Below the pieces are notes generated by a model, which saw only the letters and a program-made list of their open reading frames with translations, was not told the origin of the DNA and made no database searches. DNA of 64,000 bases from Lingula anatina (Eukaryota > Animalia > Brachiopoda), in contig CM120640.1 of the NCBI GenBank assembly GCA_051362555.1, forward strand, positions 66,008,788 through 66,072,787, read 5' to 3'. Numbering within the stretch: the first letter of the stretch is position 1; each line of letters begins with the position of its first letter. Shown here one piece after another: positions 20,384 through 52,327 of the stretch. The translations under genes and the position numbers were made by a program.

Positions 20384-34873
<14,490 letters not shown>

Positions 34874-42400: not shown

Positions 42401-42516
42401 CAGCATATTTTATTAGCAAATTGATAAACAATTAAAAATCAAAAAAGACAATGTTGCGTTAATCTCATTGCAAAAGACAGAGCACTAACTCTGGCACTAC
42501 CTCTCTGGGTGGAATG

Positions 42517-42879
42517 TGTGACGATGTAGTGTGTTAGATGAGATTATTTTATATTGCTACCGGTAGATGTCTCTGTAAGTAAAGTGTTGTCCGGTGTGCA
42601 AGTTTGAATCTCTCCCGTGATTGGTAACCTAAAGGTAAAACTGTTCACTGTATAGTTGGTTCTGATTGGTAAACGTGTACTATCTGAACTTGTATATAAG
42701 GTGTAACGTGAAATAAATCGATCTCTTTGGCTTCTTTGCGGCTGACTTTGCAGCTCTCTTGGTTCTTTTGGTCCTTCTTTGCGGATCTTTGAGACTCTCT
42801 CTGTGCTTATACTCTGAGACACCAGTAAGTACATTGTTATTTGTACCTTCATAAGGCACTCGGCCGCGAAGGCGTAACA
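42517..42879 (+). repeat. 5' LTR (363 bp)
   Basis: TGTGACGATG...GCGTAACA; two inverted CCAAT (ATTGG) boxes; TATATAA 42693-99; AATAAA 42712-17; GTAAGT donor 42825-30. Identical by eye to the 3' LTR. Confidence 0.97.
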
Positions 42880-42881
42880 AT

Positions 42882-42899
42882 TGGCGCAGTCGACAGGAT
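42882..42899 (+). other. Primer binding site, complementary to a tRNA-Ser 3' end
   Basis: TGGCGCAGTCGACAGGAT begins 2 nt after the LTR. Its complement ATCCTGTCGACTGCG-CCA resembles 3' ends of animal tRNA-Ser with a GCAGTCG acceptor stem. Confidence 0.8.
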
Positions 42900-43075
42900 A
42901 GAGTTTGTGTTGCTTATTAATTGACAGGATAGAATTTTGTGAAGCTAACGTTATTAGAGGATAAAATTTGTGTAGCATATGTTGTTAAATTGACAGGATT
43001 CAATTTGTGTAGCTAACGTTGTCAATTTACGGGATAGAATTTGTGTAGCTTGTGTAGTTAGAGGATAGAATTGGT
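42892..43075 (+). repeat. Degenerate ~27-35 bp tandem repeats in the retrotransposon leader
   Basis: About six copies of (GAC/AG)AGGATAGAATTTGTGTAGC(TAACGTT). Confidence 0.8.
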
Positions 43076-43345
43076 AGTTATTAGTGATATTGGAATTTTT
43101 GAAAAGCTTTGTGTATGACTGAGTGAGAGTTGGAAAGGTAGTGACACGTGTTAGTCGGGACTTGTTGCAAGACGCGAACTAGTCGGAACATATTGCAGTG
43201 ATATTTCAATTACAGTGTTGTTTGATACTCGCGGCAATTCAGTAAATATTGTCAAAGTAGTATACATTTTAGTAGTTTAGAGATATTTTGTATTAATTTT
43301 CTGTTGTGATACTACAACTGCAGAGACACTGCGGACCACTTGTAC

Positions 43346-43402
43346 TGAGTAGTAGTCGGAAAAACCACGTGTAGTGAGTAGTAGTCGGAAAGACCACGTG
43401 TA
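43346..43402 (+). repeat. Tandem duplication (~29 bp) in the retrotransposon leader
   Basis: TGAGTAGTAGTCGGAAAAACCACGTGTAG followed by TGAGTAGTAGTCGGAAAGACCACGTGTA. Confidence 0.85.
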
Positions 43403-43850
43403 TTTACAGGCCCGTGCGTGTAGAGCCTTATGTTGTAATTAGAATACAGAACATTATTTAGTGAGTTTATTTACAAAGAAAAGCATTTATTTACAATAAA
43501 GGTTTCAAATTTGTGTTTTTCACTGACTTGCCGAATGAGGGAGTGAGTGTGAATTGTTTATTGTATATTTTTATCAATATTGCAATAGCATATATTGATA
43601 GAGTACTATTCTACCTTGTTCGTCTGTGTTGAAAGTGTTTCATCATAGGTGTACATGTGAGTAGGTTGAATAGTGTGAGAAATTTGTTTGTATTTACTGT
43701 GAAGTTTAGTAGTGGCTTTTTGCTGAAACTTTCTTCAAACAGTAAAGTGTGGTAGTGGTGAAAGTATTTTATTGTGTAGTTTTTGTGGCACAGCTGCATT
43801 GCTATTATCAATAAAATTGTGTAATAGGTTGTGGGAAACTAGAAGTGAAA

Positions 43851-45821
43851 ATGGCGTCGGGTAATGTAGAAAGCAGTGTTGTGTTGAATGTGCAGACAGC
43901 GTCTGAGACAGAATTGAAAAATTTGAAAGGAATTGGTCCAGTGAAAGCTCATAGATTGGTGTCTTTGAGAAATCAAAAAGGAAAATTGCTGTTGAGTGAT
44001 TTGGAAGAAATTACTGGTATTAGTGTAGCAGAATGGCAGAAATGGGAAAAGAAGGGTAATGTGATTCTGGGTGTAATGGAAGAAAAAGATGAAGGTTCAA
44101 AAGTTGGAGATGAGAAAAAGGAAGAGAGTGTGAATTGGGAAGAAAAGTATAGAAAGTTGATGGAACGATTGAAGGTACAAAATGAAATGATAATAAATCT
44201 TCGAGATGAGGTTGAAGAAGCGGGAGAAAAGATGGAATTTTTATCAAGTGAATTGGAGATAAATGATGCTAAAGTGAAAAAGTTGGAAAATGAAAAGAGT
44301 GAATGGGAAAAAGAGAAATATGCTTTGGAAAATGAAAAGTATAGTTTGGAAAATGAGAAGTGTGATTTGAAAAATGAAAATGATATGTTGAAAGAAAGAA
44401 ATGTGAAAATTCAGAGTGAGTTAGGAAAAACTAAACAAGTGTTGATGAAAAAAGAAATGGAAATGGAAGAAGAGTGTAGAGAGTATTCCACAAAAGAAAT
44501 GATGTTACATGCTCAGGTTGAAACACAAAACGAATTGTTGAGAAAACGTGTAGAAAGTTTGCAGAAGTGTGAAATTGAGAAAATGGATTTGAAATTGCAA
44601 TTGGATGAAATGACAGCACGTCATGATCATTTGCAAACTCAGTATGAAAGAATGCATTTACAACAGGATTTAGAAAAAATTCCAAGGCCAACTCCTAGAA
44701 ATATTAAAACTAGTATATCCACACCTGCACCTAGAAGTAGTAAAAAGAAAAGTTTGGAAACCCCTGTGAAAAAACCAATACTGAAACTAGCAGAGAGTGA
44801 AAGTGATAGTGAAAGCGAAAGTGAAAGTGAATCTGAATTTGAACAGAAAAGAGTTCCTTTAGTTGAAAGAGAAAAAGGACCTGTTCATAAAATGCCTAGT
44901 TTTAGTGGGAATGGAAGAGAAAATTGGGAAGCTTTTGTATTTAAGTTTGAAGGAATGGCAGAAAGATATGGTTGGAATGATAAAAGAAAAACTAGCAGAA
45001 TGATTGAATGTTTGGAAGACAGAGCTCTTGAGTATGCGGTAGAGTTTGGAAACTGCAAATATAAACGTTTGAAAGAAGTGATGTCAAAACGTTTTAGTAT
45101 GAAAGAGTCTGCTTCATCTGCACGCAGAGCACTTCAATCAATGAGGCAGGGTGAAAGTGAATCTTTGCAAGATTTTTCTCATCGTGTGTTCATGGCATCT
45201 AGAGAGGGATATGCAGAAGGTGGTGAAGGAATAGCTGTGGATTCATTTTTGAGAGGGTGTCGTGACAAAGAATCTGCAAAATTGGCTATGGATAAAGAGC
45301 CTAAAGATTTATTTGAAGCTTTAGAGTTTGTGAAAGTTGCAAACAATAACTTCAAAGCTGTGTATGGTACAGGTGGGAGAAATGTGCATATTAGACAAGT
45401 TGGAATGTCTGATCAGAGTGTGGAGAATGGAAGTGGAAATCAATTACTCTACAACATGCAAAAAACCATGTCTGCAATGTGTGATCAGATGAAAAGAATG
45501 AATGACGCATGGGTGTCACCGTCAAATTCTCAGAGAAATTCTGGTAGAATGGTAAAGTCGCCCCAGAATGGAAACATAAATCAAAGTAGAGGGGGTCCAC
45601 CACAATGTTTTAAATGTGGAGAAAGAGGTCATGTTCAGAGGGATTGTAAGAATGAAATTGTAGAACATCCACCTAATCCCAATGTTAATAAAAATGCCAG
45701 CCCAAGTTCTATTTTGATTTGTCATAAATGTGGACAGAGAGGTCACATTCAAACAAATTGCCCTCAAAATAGAGAAATACCAAAGAATCCTCCTCCTGGT
45801 GCAAGAAATTCGGTAAACTAG
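43851..45821 (+). CDS. gag: Gag (656 aa): N-terminal HhH domain, coiled coil, capsid domain, two CCHC zinc knuckles
   Basis: aaaATGGcg start; capsid-like MPSFSGNGRENWEAFVFKFE...LQSMRQGESESLQDF; knuckles CFKCGERGHVQRDC and CHKCGQRGHIQTNC. Confidence 0.92.
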   Translation: MASGNVESSVVLNVQTASETELKNLKGIGPVKAHRLVSLRNQKGKLLLSDLEEITGISVAEWQKWEKKGNVILGVMEEKDEGSKVGDEKKEESVNWEEKYRKLMERLKVQNEMIINLRDEVEEAGEKMEFLSSELEINDAKVKKLENEKSEWEKEKYALENEKYSLENEKCDLKNENDMLKERNVKIQSELGKTKQVLMKKEMEMEEECREYSTKEMMLHAQVETQNELLRKRVESLQKCEIEKMDLKLQLDEMTARHDHLQTQYERMHLQQDLEKIPRPTPRNIKTSISTPAPRSSKKKSLETPVKKPILKLAESESDSESESESESEFEQKRVPLVEREKGPVHKMPSFSGNGRENWEAFVFKFEGMAERYGWNDKRKTSRMIECLEDRALEYAVEFGNCKYKRLKEVMSKRFSMKESASSARRALQSMRQGESESLQDFSHRVFMASREGYAEGGEGIAVDSFLRGCRDKESAKLAMDKEPKDLFEALEFVKVANNNFKAVYGTGGRNVHIRQVGMSDQSVENGSGNQLLYNMQKTMSAMCDQMKRMNDAWVSPSNSQRNSGRMVKSPQNGNINQSRGGPPQCFKCGERGHVQRDCKNEIVEHPPNPNVNKNASPSSILICHKCGQRGHIQTNCPQNREIPKNPPPGARNSVN

Positions 45822-48691
45822 AACGGGACGAATTGACCGACCGGATTTCGGATCCCTTACTTCATGTTGAAGGTCGGATTATGGATAGTGGAAATGTGAA
45901 AATGATGAATGTTGGAGATTTAGTGGGAGAAAATTTTGTGATTCCTGTTAGTGTAGGTGGTGTGAAAACATTAGCAGTTGTGGATACGGCAGCTCAATTT
46001 ACTATCGTAAATAAAAGATTTTATAGTAAATTGCAGGGTGTGCCTGAGTTTTGTGAGACTCTGAAATTAATGCTTGCTGGAAAAAATGCATTTATGATGG
46101 GTCATAGAGTAGAAAATTTGAGTATTGAGATAGATGGGATAGAATATAAAGAAAATGTGTATGTTGCAGATTTGCAAGAAGGAATTGATATGTTGTTGGG
46201 ATTGAAGTTTTTGAAGGAGAGAAATTGTGTGGTGAATTTAGTTGATCAAACATTGATCATTGGAGAAAAATGTGTGCAAGGAAGCATAGAAGTTGAAGGT
46301 GACTCTGATTTGAGTAAAGTGAATGATGAGACAGAAGCTAAAAGTGATGAGAAATGTGTTGATGAAATGGAGAAAGAAGTTGAAATTTGTGAAAATATGG
46401 TGAGAACGAAAAAGAGAATAGTAGTTCCTCCATTGACGGTGATGAGAATTTCTGTTTGTGCAGATTATGAGTTAGAGAAAAAGAAAGAGTACGTGATAGA
46501 ACCTTGTGTTGATAGACAAGTGTTGGTATCTTGTGCATTAGTTAAAGGTGATGATGTTGTTCCTATAGAGATAGTGAATGATGGAGAAAGAAATGCTGTT
46601 TTGAAAGCAGGTAGTGTGTTAGGTGTTATTAAGGAAGTTGAGACAGTTGATTCTGAAGTGAGATGTGAAGATGTAGATGGAAAAGCTAGGGTGTCTGTTG
46701 TGAATAAAGCTGAAATGAAGTTGAAAATAGATGAAAATATGGATAAAGAAGTGATGAGAAGTTTGAAAAGAGATTTGCCTGAACATTTGCAAGATTTATT
46801 TGAAAGATCAAGTGAGGAGCTTGATTCAAATGAAATGGTTGCATTGTGTGAAACTTTGAGAGATTATGAAGATGTATTTGCAAAGCATGATCTTGATTTA
46901 GGGTGCATGAAAGGTGTTAAACATACTATTAACACTGGTATTGCAGCTCCTGTGAAACAGAAATTGCGTAGAACTCCATTGGGAATGGAAGGAGAAGAGA
47001 GAAAGATGCTTGAAAAGTTGTTAGCTTCTGATGTTATTCAGCCATCAAATTCTGAATGGGCTTCTCCACCAGTATTGATAAGAAAGAAAGATGGAAGTGT
47101 TAGATGGTGTGTGGATTATAGGGAATTAAATAGGAAAACTATCAAAGATTCTTATCCTATTCCAAACATTGGTGATTGTTTAGATTGTTTGGCTGGAAAT
47201 CAATTTTTGAGTTTGATTGATATGGCTCAAGGATATTTTCAAATTGAGATTGATGAGAAAGATAGAAATAAAACTGCTTTTATCACCAGATATGGTCTGT
47301 ATGAGCATAAGAGAATGGCTATGGGACTTACCAATTCTCCTGCAAGTTTTTCTAGAGCAATGCAGTTAGTATTGAGAGGTTTGACTTGGGAGAAAGTGTT
47401 AGTGTATCTGGATGATATTACAGTGTTGGGAAAGAATTTTGAAGATCATCTTAAGAATTTGAAAGAGGTTTTGGAGAGATTGCGTTCTTACAACTTGAAG
47501 TTAAAGCCTAAGAAATGTTTTCTTTTCCAAACAAAGTGTGAATTCTTAGGAAAGTCAATCAGTAGAGAAGGTGTTGGTATAACTGAGAGTAAGATTGAGT
47601 GTGTTAGAAAGTGGCCAGTACCTACAAACAAAAAGGAAGTTGAAACGTTTCTTGGTTTCATCAATTATCATAGAGATCATATTCCTCAATTTGCTGAGAA
47701 AACTGCTTGTTTGTATGAGTTGACAGGGAATAAAAGTGTTTTCATTTGGTCAGATGAACATCAAATAGCATTTGAAAGTTTAAAACAAGAGTTAACAACT
47801 GCCCCTTGTTTAGCCTTTCCTTTGTCTGAAGGTGAATTTATACTTGATACAGATGCATCATATTCATGTATAGGAGCAGAACTTTCACAGATACAACATG
47901 GTGAAGAGAAGGTTATTGCTTATGGAAGTAAAATTATGTCACCTATACAGCGGCGTTATTGTACAACTAGAAAAGAGCTCTTGGCTGTTGTAAACTTCTG
48001 TAGACAATATAGACATTATTTGTTGGGAAGAAAGTTCAGAATCCGAACAGATCATCATAGTTTAGTGTGGTTGTTAGGATTTAAAAACCCAGATGGTCAG
48101 TTAGCAAGATGGTTAGAAGAATTATCTCAGTATAATTTTACCATTGAACATAGACCAGGAAAGAAGCATGGAAATGCAGATGCATTATCAAGAATACCTT
48201 TAGCTATAAAAGAATGTGATTGCTATAAGGTAGGAGTGAAATTGAGTGACTTACCCTGTGGAGGATGTCATTATTGTCAGAAAGTACATAAAAATTGGTC
48301 AAGGTTTGAGACTGATGTGAATGATGTAATTCCTCTGGGAAATAAGAAATCGAATGATAATGTAGTTGAATCGAATGCAGTTGGTGATATGAAGAATGAA
48401 ACAAATTGTGAGAAATTGAGTTCAGTTTTGATGTGTCAGAGGGCTGATACAAATGATAAAACTGACAAGAATGAAAGAGATGAATTATGCAATTGGTTGA
48501 AAGGATATGATTTGAAAAAATTGCAGAGAAAAGATGCAGATTTGAAAATAATCATAAGTTGGTTAGAAAATGGTGAACCTAAAGAATCAGAGTTGTATTT
48601 GTGTAGTATGGCAGTGAAAGGATTATGGAATTGCAAAGAGCAATTGATTCTTTTAAATGATGTGTTATATTACAAATGGGAAAAGAAATAA
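45812..48691 (+). CDS. pol: Pol (aspartic protease, reverse transcriptase, RNase H), entered by -1 frameshift; ends before integrase
   Basis: Protease AVVDTAAQ; RT WASPPVLIRKKDGSVRWCVDYRELN, YLDD; RNase H FILDTDAS, ELLAVV, RTDHHSL, NADALSR. The -1 frame is open from GGTAAAC at 45812. Confidence 0.93.
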   Translation, partial: GKLERDELTDRISDPLLHVEGRIMDSGNVKMMNVGDLVGENFVIPVSVGGVKTLAVVDTAAQFTIVNKRFYSKLQGVPEFCETLKLMLAGKNAFMMGHRVENLSIEIDGIEYKENVYVADLQEGIDMLLGLKFLKERNCVVNLVDQTLIIGEKCVQGSIEVEGDSDLSKVNDETEAKSDEKCVDEMEKEVEICENMVRTKKRIVVPPLTVMRISVCADYELEKKKEYVIEPCVDRQVLVSCALVKGDDVVPIEIVNDGERNAVLKAGSVLGVIKEVETVDSEVRCEDVDGKARVSVVNKAEMKLKIDENMDKEVMRSLKRDLPEHLQDLFERSSEELDSNEMVALCETLRDYEDVFAKHDLDLGCMKGVKHTINTGIAAPVKQKLRRTPLGMEGEERKMLEKLLASDVIQPSNSEWASPPVLIRKKDGSVRWCVDYRELNRKTIKDSYPIPNIGDCLDCLAGNQFLSLIDMAQGYFQIEIDEKDRNKTAFITRYGLYEHKRMAMGLTNSPASFSRAMQLVLRGLTWEKVLVYLDDITVLGKNFEDHLKNLKEVLERLRSYNLKLKPKKCFLFQTKCEFLGKSISREGVGITESKIECVRKWPVPTNKKEVETFLGFINYHRDHIPQFAEKTACLYELTGNKSVFIWSDEHQIAFESLKQELTTAPCLAFPLSEGEFILDTDASYSCIGAELSQIQHGEEKVIAYGSKIMSPIQRRYCTTRKELLAVVNFCRQYRHYLLGRKFRIRTDHHSLVWLLGFKNPDGQLARWLEELSQYNFTIEHRPGKKHGNADALSRIPLAIKECDCYKVGVKLSDLPCGGCHYCQKVHKNWSRFETDVNDVIPLGNKKSNDNVVESNAVGDMKNETNCEKLSSVLMCQRADTNDKTDKNERDELCNWLKGYDLKKLQRKDADLKIIISWLENGEPKESELYLCSMAVKGLWNCKEQLILLNDVLYYKWEKK

Positions 48692-48740
48692 GATAGACAT
48701 TTGTGTTTAATTGTACCATAAGATTTGGTCAATGAAGTTT
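48692..48740 (+). pseudogene. Integrase N-terminal remnant
   Basis: The pol frame continues *DRHLCLIVP*DLVNEV, matching the 'LVVPxxLRxEVL' lead-in to the Gypsy integrase HHCC domain, then hits T16. No HHCC or DDE core follows. Confidence 0.75.
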
Positions 48741-48936
48741 TTTTTTTTTTTTTATTTGAATTTGCGTCTTATTTGAATAATATGTGTACATAGTGAATGC
48801 GGCAAGGCTGTAATACTATGTTAATAATGTAAAATTATGTTCGTAATGTAATATGTTAATATTCATTTGAAAGAAAAGCTCATTATCATGTATATTCATT
48901 CAAGAAAATAAACCATTGTATAAGTTTATTTCAGAT

Positions 48937-49606
48937 ATGGATGATCTAGACATGTTAGATGAAGCATGTTTTGTCCCGGATTATGATGACACTGATTTGG
49001 TGGAAGATCCTACTGTCTTAATTGGTGAAGAGGGGGAGGAAGTTACCCACTCAAAGTGCAGAGGGGAGAAACGGAGGAAAGAAGTTCAGTGTGGTTTGTG
49101 TCTGGTGTCCAGTGCTGACCTAAGTAGACATCTTGGACGTCATGTGAAATCTGTTCATTTGCCATGGTATATGACTCCAGGATTGGTGTGCTGGTATTGC
49201 AGATCGATGGAAAAGGACAATTCGCTTTTGCGTAAACGTCATGGTGATGTTCATTCGTGTGGAACTGGTGAATTCGAGAAAAAAACTGTGGATCCAGTTG
49301 GTGAATGGATTTATACATTTCCTGATATTAACATTAAATATGAGAAATATATGGGAGCTGATGGACTATGTGAAAAGTGAAGGACTAGTAATGTTGCCAG
49401 ATAACTGTTCCAAGGAGGACATTGACTTTGTAAAAATATACATTCATGGAAATGGAATGGAGCCTAAGACTGAGATTCTAAATTCTTGGTTGACTTTGTC
49501 TCACTGGAGAACTTTGTATCATCTGTTACAAAAACTTTCATCAGAGGATCGTGAACTCTGTAGTCATTGGTATCGGCGGATGGAATTTACTTTGCTACAT
49601 GGATGA
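48937..49606 (+). CDS. Retrotransposon accessory ORF3, Cys/His-rich, split by a 1-nt frameshift in an A7 run (49279-85)
   Basis: Acceptor tttatttcag|AT ATG; acidic N-terminus; CGLC...RHVKSVHLPWYMTPGLVCWYC; continues in the +1 frame as KKLWIQLVNGFIHFL...LSHWRTLYHLLQKLS. Confidence 0.65.
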
Positions 49607-49981
49607 AAAATGAACTATATAATGATTTTGACATTTCACATTGACATTGTTATCATTAATAATGTTGTTTTGAGCAACTTTGAGTTAAAATCACTTTGTA
49701 TGCTTTTAAAGTTGATTTAAAGTGATAATGGATTTAAAACTTTGTTTTGCATTCCTAAGGATGAACATTTATGCTGAGAGATGGACTTGATTGACTTTGC
49801 TTGTGTTAAAAGTTAAATGTTGAATCTTGGCATAACAAGAATGAACTTATTTGCATTATTTGCTTATTTTAAATATAAAGTAAGATTTCAGTTGTTATAT
49901 TTGTTGAATTGTAGTAATTGTTAGTTTAACAATTTAAAGTAATGGTTTATATTGTAATAATAGGGGGGAGTTTTGTTCGTC

Positions 49982-49995
49982 AAAAGGGGGGAGAG
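49982..49995 (+). other. Polypurine tract
   Basis: AAAAGGGGGGAGAG directly abuts the 3' LTR; a second G-tract (AGGGGGGAG) lies ~20 nt upstream. Confidence 0.9.
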
Positions 49996-50358
49996 TGTGA
50001 CGATGTAGTGTGTTAGATGAGATTATTTTATATTGCTACCGGTAGATGTCTCTGTAAGTAAAGTGTTGTCCGGTGTGCAAGTTTGAATCTCTCCCGTGAT
50101 TGGTAACCTAAAGGTAAAACTGTTCACTGTATAGTTGGTTCTGATTGGTAAACGTGTACTATCTGAACTTGTATATAAGGTGTAACGTGAAATAAATCGA
50201 TCTCTTTGGCTTCTTTGCGGCTGACTTTGCAGCTCTCTTGGTTCTTTTGGTCCTTCTTTGCGGATCTTTGAGACTCTCTCTGTGCTTATACTCTGAGACA
50301 CCAGTAAGTACATTGTTATTTGTACCTTCATAAGGCACTCGGCCGCGAAGGCGTAACA
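49996..50358 (+). repeat. 3' LTR (363 bp)
   Basis: Direct repeat of 42517-42879, preceded by the PPT and followed by TSD AATG. Confidence 0.97.
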
Positions 50359-52327
50359 AATGAAACTGCGACATGCGGTGAATTTGACACATCGGCGGGA
50401 AGATTTCTTATATATTGAGGGGCATCCGTGCGATAGGTTTCTTGCATGTCATGATAAAAGCACCCCGATTATTCTTGTTGTCCCAACGGATTTGCAAGAT
50501 CGTAGCCTTTTTCTCCACTTTTTATTTTGTGCATGGCGCAAGGGCTGTCACGATCGCTGGGTCATCACCACTACTACTAGTGTAGTTAGCATTTATCTCG
50601 GGCTGGTCGCCCAACACTGACTACTAGTCATTCTACGACACATGTGACATTCCCGTGAAACGTTACGTAATACAATGTGACATAGGACCCTTTCTGACTG
50701 GCTGTAAAGACAAAGGACCAAAACACTTGACATATTTGGGGAGGTAAAGCGGGCACTGGCTTATTCAACATGAGAAAATTTTTCTAATAGTGTGTTGGGC
50801 GTCAGCTTGTTTCCCCTAGATCTAGGTAACTGTTTTGGGGGAAAATGGGAGAGCAAGGTAACAAACCCCACGGTGAAAAGACATGTAACCTAAGGAGAAA
50901 AATTAAATCGTTTATGGGTGTCGGAGGACGGTGGGAGGGGGGGGGGTAACCATTCAAAAAAAGAAAATAGACCTTGCGACGCGGAGACGTTGGGGAGAGG
51001 GTCCTCTTATAGCCACCCACTCTTGCTTCCAGCATTATATATAGATGACTGACGTGGTGGGAAAAGGGGGTGGAAGACTAATTCAGTGCACCAGCCCTGA
51101 CCCCTATAACCATGAAAGGGGACAATAATATTTCATATTTTGATAAAATTTTAGGTAACAGTTTGTCAAATTATTTCGTGAGATTCTATGAAAAAACGGA
51201 AATATATGTCGTCCTCAACATTTTTATTACACCATTTTCTAACTATTATTTTCAAGTCTGAAACTCAAAATTAGTTTTTAAAATGAACGTTTTCATTTGG
51301 TTTTGCCAGGATGGATTTTTACGTACATTCTGTGTACTTTCAGTTAGTGTAAAAATACTGGTACGCATTTTTTCAGCAGTCGATTTTTAAATTGCAAGGG
51401 GCTTTGTATGGCATTGAGAAATTAATGCACACAAATGAAATTAAAACAAAAGCAATGGCAGGTAGAAGAGATTTTAACACTTGTCATAGATCGCACAAGA
51501 TGGGTAGGTCCCAATCCTCCTTAGTATTGTAGTTTTTTCTCAGAAAATGATTAAAAATTATTTATTACCGCCTATAGTGACACACTTCATAGACATTACC
51601 AAAAATGCTAACTTTAATATTGACTACAGTATAAAATGTGCAAAACAGCTATAAAACAGAACTGAATGTTCCATAGTCAGACTTTGTGAAATATTCTCGA
51701 GTAAGTTCGTTGGGAACAAAATGTTGGATGTTTAAAATATAGGATTGGAAGTGAATGAAAATAAAAAAAAATTCACTGAAATTTAAATACTGTCTTTTCA
51801 CCAATGTTGCTGTTTCTACATTTTTGACATTTTCTGTACCTTGATAGCAAAATTAGTTTCGACGACGAATTGCAGAAGAGGTTTCATGATAGAGAACTAT
51901 TGATTGTGTCAGCTGCGACTTAAAGCTAGTGACATTTATAAATAACAACCAGACACAATGACGGCGGAGGTGGCATTTGACCAAAACGTCAGAATTCAAC
52001 CAAAGACAAAGGCTTCGAAATTAACATTCACAGATACCATTAAGGATTTTTTGTTGTGTTTTAATTTTTTCAACAGCGACAAGCAAGTGCGGAAAAGTGG
52101 ATTTATTTATAATTCAATTATCAAGCAAACATGGAATTCAAATAATTGAAAAAAGAAATGACACGACACGAAAAGATTATTTTTATCGAGTTAAACATTA
52201 CTCTTTTAACTTTATATTTACTTTTACCTCCCCAACCACCCTTACAACGCCAGCGAAGTCTTCGTATATATCTCGTTCCGCATTTGTACCAATCCTTATT
52301 TTATTGTTAATCCAACTTAGAACCAAG

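What the first reader, a model, noticed from the sequence alone, without database searches (positions are those of the whole stretch)
43881..44069. Gypsy Gag with an N-terminal ComEA-like helix-hairpin-helix DNA-binding domain
Seen: Gag begins VLNVQTASETELKNLKGIGPVKAHRLVSLRNQKGKLLLSDLEEITGISVAEWQKW. Established: this follows the tandem (HhH)2 pattern of bacterial ComEA and EEPD1-type HHH_3 domains (IN.NTAS.EEL..LPGIG...A..I...R...G......DL..V.GI), which bind dsDNA without sequence specificity. Canonical Ty3/Gypsy Gag has only CA and NC. Inference: a DNA-binding module in the matrix position could tether the particle or pre-integration complex to chromatin, protect or capture cDNA, or aid uptake into new cells. 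It may define an uncharacterised Gypsy lineage.
Basis: partly seen in the sequence, partly recalled or inferred. Interest (0 to 1): 0.8.

Follow-up and report, generated by a model that had tools for sequence, protein, structure and literature searches.

The report
Retrotransposon capsid protein with DNA-grip domain
A young Ty3/Gypsy jumping gene encodes a shell protein that starts with a conserved helix-hairpin-helix domain on a long predicted stalk, which likely grips DNA and may tether the particle to host chromosomes.

Summary
Observation confirmed. Gag (43851-45821, 656 aa) of a 7.8-kb Ty3/Gypsy element (identical 363-nt LTRs, 4-nt target duplication, empty site seen in another run, no integrase in this copy) begins with a ComEA-type helix-hairpin-helix domain. 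It passes Pfam's HHH_3 cut-off, and a model built without any ComEA sequence matches ComEA best. It is in frame with a 174-residue predicted coil, capsid and two zinc knuckles. Both distant Gags whose front end could be read, found through capsid alone (40-47% identical), carry the domain. Differences among copies in its core are 6 silent to 1 replacing. Correction: only the first hairpin is intact. It keeps the lysine ComEA needs for DNA binding; the second hairpin is degenerate. Best mechanism (inferred, about 45%): weak non-specific DNA grips, displayed in hundreds outside the capsid, tether particle or pre-integration complex to chromatin. A role in cell entry has no support. Binding is untested; clade placement and origin are unresolved. 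Five literature searches found no description. This scan noted the same layout before in a sea-urchin element (unchecked note). New variant of a known kind.

The parts
42513..42516 (+). Left target-site duplication (4 nt)
   Evidence: Same 4 nt at 50359-50362; empty site joins 42512 to 50359 in run X2 and in 4 reads of run X12
42517..42879 (+). 5' LTR, 363 nt, TG...CA
   Evidence: 0 mismatches to the 3' LTR
42882..42898 (+). Primer-binding site, tRNA-Ser type
   Evidence: the same 12-nt PBS is typed Ser_AGA_UGA_CGA (1 mismatch) in one row of a supplement of PMC13524379 and 'others' in another
43851..45821 (+). gag, 656 aa, intact
43881..44072 (+). ComEA-type helix-hairpin-helix domain (aa 11-74); first hairpin G27-G29 at 43929-43937, K32 at 43944-43946; second hairpin degenerate
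44136..44657 (+). Predicted continuous helix / coiled coil, aa 96-269, about 26 nm
   Evidence: Model pLDDT about 85-92 over most of it; hydrophobic period 3.5, p=0.0005
44658..44888 (+). Predicted disordered linker: basic tract (11 K/R, 2 D/E in aa 276-316) then acidic Ser-Glu tract
44889..45365 (+). Capsid (CA), aa 347-505
   Evidence: Pfam Retrotrans_gag E 0.0012, below cut-off; top Foldseek rows PNMA2, PEG10, dArc1, Arc, none at E<=0.001
45603..45761 (+). Nucleocapsid: two CX2CX4HX4C zinc knuckles
   Evidence: Pfam zf-CCHC, 2 stretches, E 5e-11
45881..48691 (+). pol: protease, reverse transcriptase, RNase H; ends at a stop with no integrase; -1 frame to gag, open from 45773
48937..49606 (+). 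Third, unexplained reading frame with a weak C2H2 finger, split over two frames in this copy
49982..49995 (+). Polypurine tract
49996..50358 (+). 3' LTR

Best explanation
This Ty3/Gypsy Gag carries a ComEA-type helix-hairpin-helix head on a predicted 26-nm coiled stalk ahead of its capsid domain, and the head likely binds double-stranded DNA without sequence preference, which would tether the particle or pre-integration complex to host chromatin. Shown: domain, frame, order of domains, conservation in distant Gags, silent bias among copies, transcription of the family. Inferred steps: (1) the head binds the DNA backbone through its one intact hairpin and K32; (2) because the capsid N-terminus points outward, heads sit on the outside as spikes and cannot reach the packaged RNA or cDNA; (3) weak single-site binding becomes strong through hundreds of Gag copies and coil-driven pairing; (4) this holds the particle on chromosomes when the nuclear envelope breaks down in dividing germ-line cells, ahead of integration. 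The window copy lacks integrase, so it was most likely moved by an intact relative.
For: Domain and fold. K32 aligns with G. stearothermophilus ComEA K166, whose alanine mutant does not bind DNA, and with V. cholerae K63; G29 and R40 match V. cholerae G60 and R71 by spacing. The position is basic in all three Gag groups (K, R, R), against 38% K/R among 433 non-Gag domains. Residues 22-46 hold 7 K/R and no D/E. Selection: 6 silent to 1 replacing in the core, 1.8 of 7 expected, P about 0.0008; the flanks show 2 to 5. Architecture head-coil-linker-CA recurs in P0151 and P0152. Precedents from passages read: Cer1 Gag has a long N-terminal helix and capsids with 12-19 nm spikes (PMC10309623); Ty3 CA N-terminus runs outward and the capsid has 540 copies (PMC6525542); MLV p12 tethers capsid-containing complexes to mitotic chromatin (PMC6021111, abstract); Kid/KIF22 pairs a coil with an HhH tail that binds chromosome arms (PMC13581288).
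Against: No binding data. The second hairpin is degenerate in all three Gag groups, with an acidic residue where ComEA has T196; V. cholerae ComEA lacking either motif appeared to lose DNA binding. The two distant Gags have Cys at the R40 position, 99% Arg in non-Gag domains, and P0151 has no Pfam HhH match as a whole protein. Fold matches are modest (Foldseek E 0.031; Z 7.1, rmsd 5.0 over 72 residues). If the protease cuts in the linker, the head leaves the capsid before integration. One low-depth rearranged copy in run X10 has deletions inside the domain. Known Gag tethers bind histones, not bare DNA. Only two distant relatives could be read.
Confidence: 0.45

Rival explanations
1. The head-coil-basic-tract piece works in the nucleus before assembly, as uncleaved Gag or a released protein. 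It loads on chromatin near transcribing copies and hands new genomic RNA to Gag for export and packaging.
For: A basic, NLS-like tract follows the coil in a disordered, probably cleavable linker. Cer1 makes a nuclear protein, CERV, that shares N-terminal Gag peptides and is needed for RNA export.
Against: No splice joint into or out of gag was seen in three shallow RNA runs, though depth was low. The basic tract is not evidently conserved in P0151 and P0152.
Confidence: 0.2
2. The head binds RNA or germ-granule material in the cytoplasm and sets where particles assemble or dock.
For: One basic face remains. The Cer1 authors propose granule or microtubule targeting for that Gag's N-terminal domain.
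Against: The closest structural relatives with known ligands bind dsDNA; nucleocapsid already covers RNA binding.
Confidence: 0.15
3. The fold is kept as a protein-protein module (self-association or a host partner) and DNA binding has been lost or is secondary.
For: Second hairpin degenerate; a Trp at position 62 is shared by all three Gag groups and is absent among the 22 non-Gag domains aligned there; R40 is replaced in the distant Gags.
Against: The first hairpin and its basic residue are kept across Gags only 23-30% identical in this domain.
Confidence: 0.15
4. The domain is a passenger, a recent chance fusion with no role.
For: This copy is defective; a broken copy exists; the tree neither shows nor rejects one origin (p-AU 0.41).
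Against: Same place in Gags 40-47% identical in CA; silent bias among copies; sense-biased transcripts over it.
Confidence: 0.05

Closest known systems
Ty3/Gypsy (Metaviridae) LTR retrotransposons, e.g. yeast Ty3
   Same: LTRs, tRNA primer site, polypurine tract, gag with CA and CCHC, pol PR-RT-RH; RT best matches Ty3 (E 1e-68).
   Different: Most members start Gag at CA (PMC6525542, PMC10309623); here about 345 residues precede it, with an HhH head and a long coil. Integrase is absent in this copy.
ComEA DNA-binding domain (Pfam HHH_3 PF12836; PDB 8dss, 8dfk, 2duy)
   Same: Four-helix HhH fold, first GIG hairpin, the critical lysine (K166/K63) and the conserved arginine.
   Different: Second hairpin degenerate; no membrane anchor or oligomerisation domain of ComEA; NCBIfam comE score 39.7 against a cut-off of 152. 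It is a ComEA-like domain, not a ComEA.
Cer1 Gag and CERV of C. elegans (PMC10309623)
   Same: Ty3/Gypsy Gag with a long N-terminal helix before CA; spiked capsids.
   Different: The 'helix-hairpin-helix' in that paper describes CERV's H domain, which holds a potential leucine zipper; the passages read claim no ComEA-type DNA-binding motif.
MLV p12 and foamy virus Gag chromatin-binding sequence (PMC6021111)
   Same: Proposed role: a Gag part that tethers the capsid-containing complex to mitotic chromatin.
   Different: Short peptides that dock on nucleosomes; here a folded domain predicted to bind DNA itself.
Chromokinesin Kid/KIF22 (PMC13581288; PDB 2edu)
   Same: Coiled coil plus HHH-type domain; sequence and fold match to its tail.
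   Different: A host motor with the domain at the C-terminus; no evidence that it is the donor.

Membership tests
Ty3/Gypsy (Metaviridae) | Direct LTRs TG...CA with target-site duplication, PBS and PPT | tested here: met
Ty3/Gypsy (Metaviridae) | Gag with CA fold and CX2CX4HX4C nucleocapsid | tested here: met
   zf-CCHC E 5e-11; CA by weak Pfam hit and by Foldseek rows that are nearly all capsids, none at E<=0.001
Ty3/Gypsy (Metaviridae) | RT/RNase H closest to Ty3/Gypsy | tested here: met
   Ty3 E 1.3e-68, caulimovirus 1.9e-45, retroviruses 4e-25 or weaker; similarity, not a tree
Ty3/Gypsy (Metaviridae) | Pol order PR-RT-RH-IN | tested here: inconclusive
   PR-RT-RH present in order; no integrase match in pol or in the frames behind it
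Named Gypsy clade (Mag A/B/C, MolGy, CsRN1, Cigr, etc.) | Place in an RT/RNase H tree with reference elements | not testable with these tools
   No reference sequences at hand; supplements of PMC6238403 gave names, not sequences
ComEA-type (HhH)2 domain, HHH_3 | Pfam HHH_3 above curated cut-off | tested here: met
   28.9 bits against 27 in whole Gag; 33.6 for aa 1-80
ComEA-type (HhH)2 domain, HHH_3 | Compact four-helix HhH fold | tested here: met
   pLDDT 80, helices 19-23, 29-43, 48-55, 59-67; best match ComEA 8dss, Z 7.1, rmsd 5.0, 72 aligned; 2duy Z 5.7, rmsd 3.0, 61 aligned
ComEA-type (HhH)2 domain, HHH_3 | First hairpin G-h-G and following DNA-contact lysine | tested here: met
   G27-I28-G29, K32; Arg in P0151 and P0152
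ComEA-type (HhH)2 domain, HHH_3 | Second hairpin G-h-G with K/T contacts | tested here: not met
   G-I-S in the window, K-V-G and H-I-P in the relatives; acidic residue at position 61 in all
ComEA-type (HhH)2 domain, HHH_3 | Binds dsDNA without sequence preference | not testable with these tools
   Needs a binding assay
ComEA competence protein | Whole-protein family score; export or membrane anchor | tested here: not met
   TIGR01259 39.7 bits against 152.35; TIGR00426 30.3 against 53.1; the domain starts at residue 9-11 of a Gag
Troyka | Gag finger CX2CX8-10HX4C (PMC12440569) | tested here: not met
   Both fingers are CX2CX4HX4C
Gmr1 clade | Integrase upstream of RT (PMC6238403) | tested here: not met
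   No integrase match between protease and RT in Pfam or PDB

The most novel reading that the evidence does not exclude
A widespread, undescribed lineage of marine-invertebrate Ty3/Gypsy elements (brachiopod here, sea urchin in an unchecked note) builds capsids bristling with hundreds of HhH DNA grips on 26-nm stalks. It is a Gag-encoded tether that binds DNA directly rather than histones, copies the design of a chromokinesin tail, and lets the particle ride germ-line chromosomes through division.
Probability: 0.35. Interest if true: 0.75.

Novelty: new variant of a known kind. Interest (0 to 1): 0.56.

Why it matters
How Ty3/Gypsy particles in animals reach chromatin is poorly known outside a few models. 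A conserved, folded nucleic-acid-binding domain in the matrix position gives a small, soluble target with a predicted key residue, so the question becomes directly testable. It would be a third solution, beside MLV p12 and the foamy virus peptide, to tethering a capsid to chromosomes. It also offers a marker for a lineage that RT-only surveys of marine invertebrates would not have characterised by its Gag.

Tried and rejected
Full-length Gag search: 0 of 7997 candidates scored, probably swamped by coil words. Exhaustive search with aa 1-80: 1310 hits, top 150 listed; 1 of 150 is the Gag relative P0001 and 0 of the other 149 match the CA profile. Repeat-rich HhH proteins fill the list, so single-domain Gag hits would be hidden. 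Viral contigs: 3 loci with a 16-residue hairpin match, not examined further, and none for RT or CA. Metagenome contigs: 1 locus, L004, which starts too close to CA to show the N-terminus. Prokaryote genomes: none. ESM Atlas: no hit at 0.9 or above; leads were generic Gag clusters and HhH clusters. Viral fold library: weak rows only, best E 0.013. Domain tree (3 Gags and 40 of 130 non-Gag domains, 64 columns): unresolved, one origin neither shown nor rejected; no eukaryotic host domains were included. Dimer prediction of aa 5-200: verdict 'no answer', a control scored as high. No RNA holder was listed by the index; RNA runs were added by species label. Frameshift signal at the gag-pol overlap: no canonical slippery heptamer, and folding z = -1.1. 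No whole genome is held, so copies could not be counted. Rejected readings: chance motif, mis-joined frame, bacterial contamination (the domain lies between identical LTRs beside an intron-containing ELAV-like gene), Troyka, Gmr1.

Full report
The observation. Pfam HHH_3 matches residues 9-59 at 28.9 bits (E 1.2e-6), above the curated cut-off of 27, in the same protein as two CCHC knuckles and a weak Retrotrans_gag match. The best PDB sequence matches of the first 80 residues are two ComEA structures, then EEPD1, KIF22 and T. thermophilus ComEA. A profile built only from non-Gag HhH domains scores the window Gag 40.1 bits; 0 of 1000 shuffles reach that. AlphaFold2 on an alignment of four Gag N-termini, with no ComEA row, gives a four-helix domain with mean pLDDT 80. 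Foldseek ranks ComEA first (E 0.031, probability 1.00) and KIF22 second. The Foldseek-independent search over 48,161 chains also ranks ComEA first (Z 7.1, rmsd 5.0, 72 aligned), followed by Tex, T. thermophilus ComEA, PolC, TEFM and KIF22. These scores are modest on their own; the tool notes that Z under 8 can reflect a common arrangement. They agree with the sequence evidence.

The element. Two 363-nt LTRs with 0 mismatches (42517-42879, 49996-50358), a 4-nt target duplication, a primer site and a polypurine tract bound a 7,842-nt element. The primer site's last 12 letters equal a PBS typed as tRNA-Ser in a supplement row of PMC13524379. Pol holds protease, RT and RNase H; its RT matches Ty3 best (E 1.3e-68). 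No integrase was found. The empty site is present in a contig of run X2 and in 4 RNA reads of X12, so the insertion is young and polymorphic. A 95% identical N-terminus is on record as an uncharacterised Lingula anatina RefSeq protein, XP_013422122.1, so the host is likely that brachiopod or a close relative.

Anatomy of Gag. The full-length model (pTM 0.25, so only local features count) shows the HhH head (10-74), a short loop, one helix of 174 residues (96-269), a disordered linker (270-346), a helical capsid region (about 357-505) and the knuckles. The helix has a hydrophobic period of 3.5 (p = 0.0005) and would span about 26 nm. The top Foldseek rows for the whole model are capsids (PNMA2, PEG10, dArc1, Arc), with ComEA at rank 8; none reaches E 0.001.

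Is it a lineage trait? Searches with the capsid region alone, blind to the HhH domain, returned 1 of 573 and 3 of 7991 candidates (P0151, P0152, P0153) and one metagenome locus (L004). Two of these four lack a readable N-terminus: P0153 starts at CA and L004 starts 294 nt before it. The other two, 47% and 40% identical to the window in CA, both begin with the domain and a coil. P0152 reaches Pfam's HHH cut-off (24.0 bits). P0151 has no HhH match as a whole protein but scores 11.4 bits on the independent profile, P0152 19.4, each beyond 0 of 1000 shuffles. P0151 and P0152 are closer to each other (74% in CA), so they are not two independent lineages. A tree of the domain was unresolved (p-AU 0.41 for one clade), so origin and single capture stay open.

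Is it under selection and expressed? Three DNA runs and one RNA run laid on 43820-44120 gave 21 listed differences, 20 in coding sequence. I set aside 6 that come only from one rearranged, low-depth piece with deletions inside the domain. In the core (aa 11-67) the rest are 6 silent and 1 conservative (E61D), against 1.8 of 7 silent expected, P about 0.0008; with the 6 included, 9 to 2. The flanks show 2 silent to 5 replacing. The numbers are small, filtered and not independent. RNA reads over the domain are strand-biased in X13 (about 9-19 against 0-4) and X12 (13.7 against 2.6 in one bin), which in the usual stranded library means sense transcripts; X15 had almost none and X18 few. The reads come from the family, not necessarily this copy.

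Which DNA contacts survive? Aligning to 8dss with the residue numbers of PMC9747964 (passages; offset inferred from chain length, and it also places K195/T196 correctly) puts K32 on K166, whose alanine mutant does not bind DNA. By spacing G29, K32 and R40 match V. cholerae G60, K63 and R71 (PMC3879209, passages). Position 32 is K, R, R in the three Gag groups. The second hairpin differs: G at 56 and 58 in 95% and 87% of non-Gag domains, but G-I-S, K-V-G and H-I-P in the Gags, with D or E at 61 and a shared Trp at 62. The distant Gags also have Cys for R40. So one DNA-contact site is kept and the second is likely lost.

Mechanism. In Ty3 the capsid N-terminus runs outward and the shell has 540 copies (PMC6525542, passages). 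Cer1 Gag has a long N-terminal helix and its capsids carry 12-19 nm spikes (PMC10309623, passages). By inference the heads here stand outside the shell, away from the packaged genome. One weak site repeated hundreds of times would bind by avidity. MLV p12 and the foamy virus peptide tether capsid-containing complexes to mitotic nucleosomes (PMC6021111, abstract), and Kid/KIF22 uses a coil plus an HhH tail to hold chromosome arms (PMC13581288, passages). I therefore favour a chromatin tether (0.45). Rivals are a nuclear RNA hand-over role (0.2), RNA or granule docking (0.15), a protein-binding module (0.15) and a passenger (0.05). None of these steps was tested experimentally. Cell entry has no support.

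Novelty. Five full-text searches combining HhH terms or N-terminal DNA-binding terms with Gag and retrotransposon terms showed no description in their listings: 1, 47 (30 listed), 47 (25 listed), 4 and 0 papers. The one paper holding all terms uses the phrase for CERV's zipper-containing domain. The mollusc and annelid clade surveys (PMC6238403, PMC8556966; passages) classify by RT/RNase H and the passages read do not describe Gag domains. The Troyka paper (PMC12440569, passages) gives a different finger. Repbase, Dfam and most subscription journals were not searchable, and a scanned PDF and a slide file in the supplements of PMC6238403 could not be read, so a database-level mention may exist. 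Verdict: a real, conserved domain fusion; a new variant of Ty3/Gypsy Gag; function inferred; interest 0.56.

Noticed in passing
window 48692-48936: Pol stops after RNase H and a linker; a T run follows near 48740 and no integrase is found, yet the LTRs are identical and the site is polymorphic. This points to a non-autonomous copy moved in trans or deleted very recently. Among listed differences to other copies, gag shows 6 silent of 8 and pol 4 of 11 (drawn from the 40 of 288 rows shown).
   Followed up: partly
window 48937-49606: A third reading frame before the 3' LTR with an acidic start and a weak C2H2 finger (Pfam E 0.083), split over two frames in this copy. Copies in the runs differ by small indels in this stretch. 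No family match in Pfam, NCBIfam or PDB.
   Followed up: partly
window 20384-34708, minus strand: Intron-containing ELAV/Hu-like gene (RRM exons; family name and motifs recalled). The element lies about 8 kb upstream of the first coding exon found, in the opposite orientation; 4 RNA reads cross the empty site, so it may sit in a 5' intron.
   Followed up: partly
window 42892-43072: About 4-5 degenerate copies of a 31-37 nt unit start inside the primer-binding site and repeat its 3' end through the leader; a second 29-nt repeat lies at 43335-43402. The leader is 971 nt with 5 upstream ATGs.
   Followed up: no
window 45773-45883: Gag and pol overlap in the -1 frame with a non-canonical heptamer just before the gag stop; pol also has its own ATG at 45881. 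How pol is made is open.
   Followed up: partly
window about 46240-47070: About 280 residues between protease and RT with no Pfam or PDB match, and a Cys-rich stretch directly after RNase H. Both might serve as lineage markers.
   Followed up: no
window 44283-44406: A 21-nt (one heptad) tandem repeat inside the coil; P0001 diverges from the window Gag here, suggesting that stalk length changes by heptad duplication.
   Followed up: no
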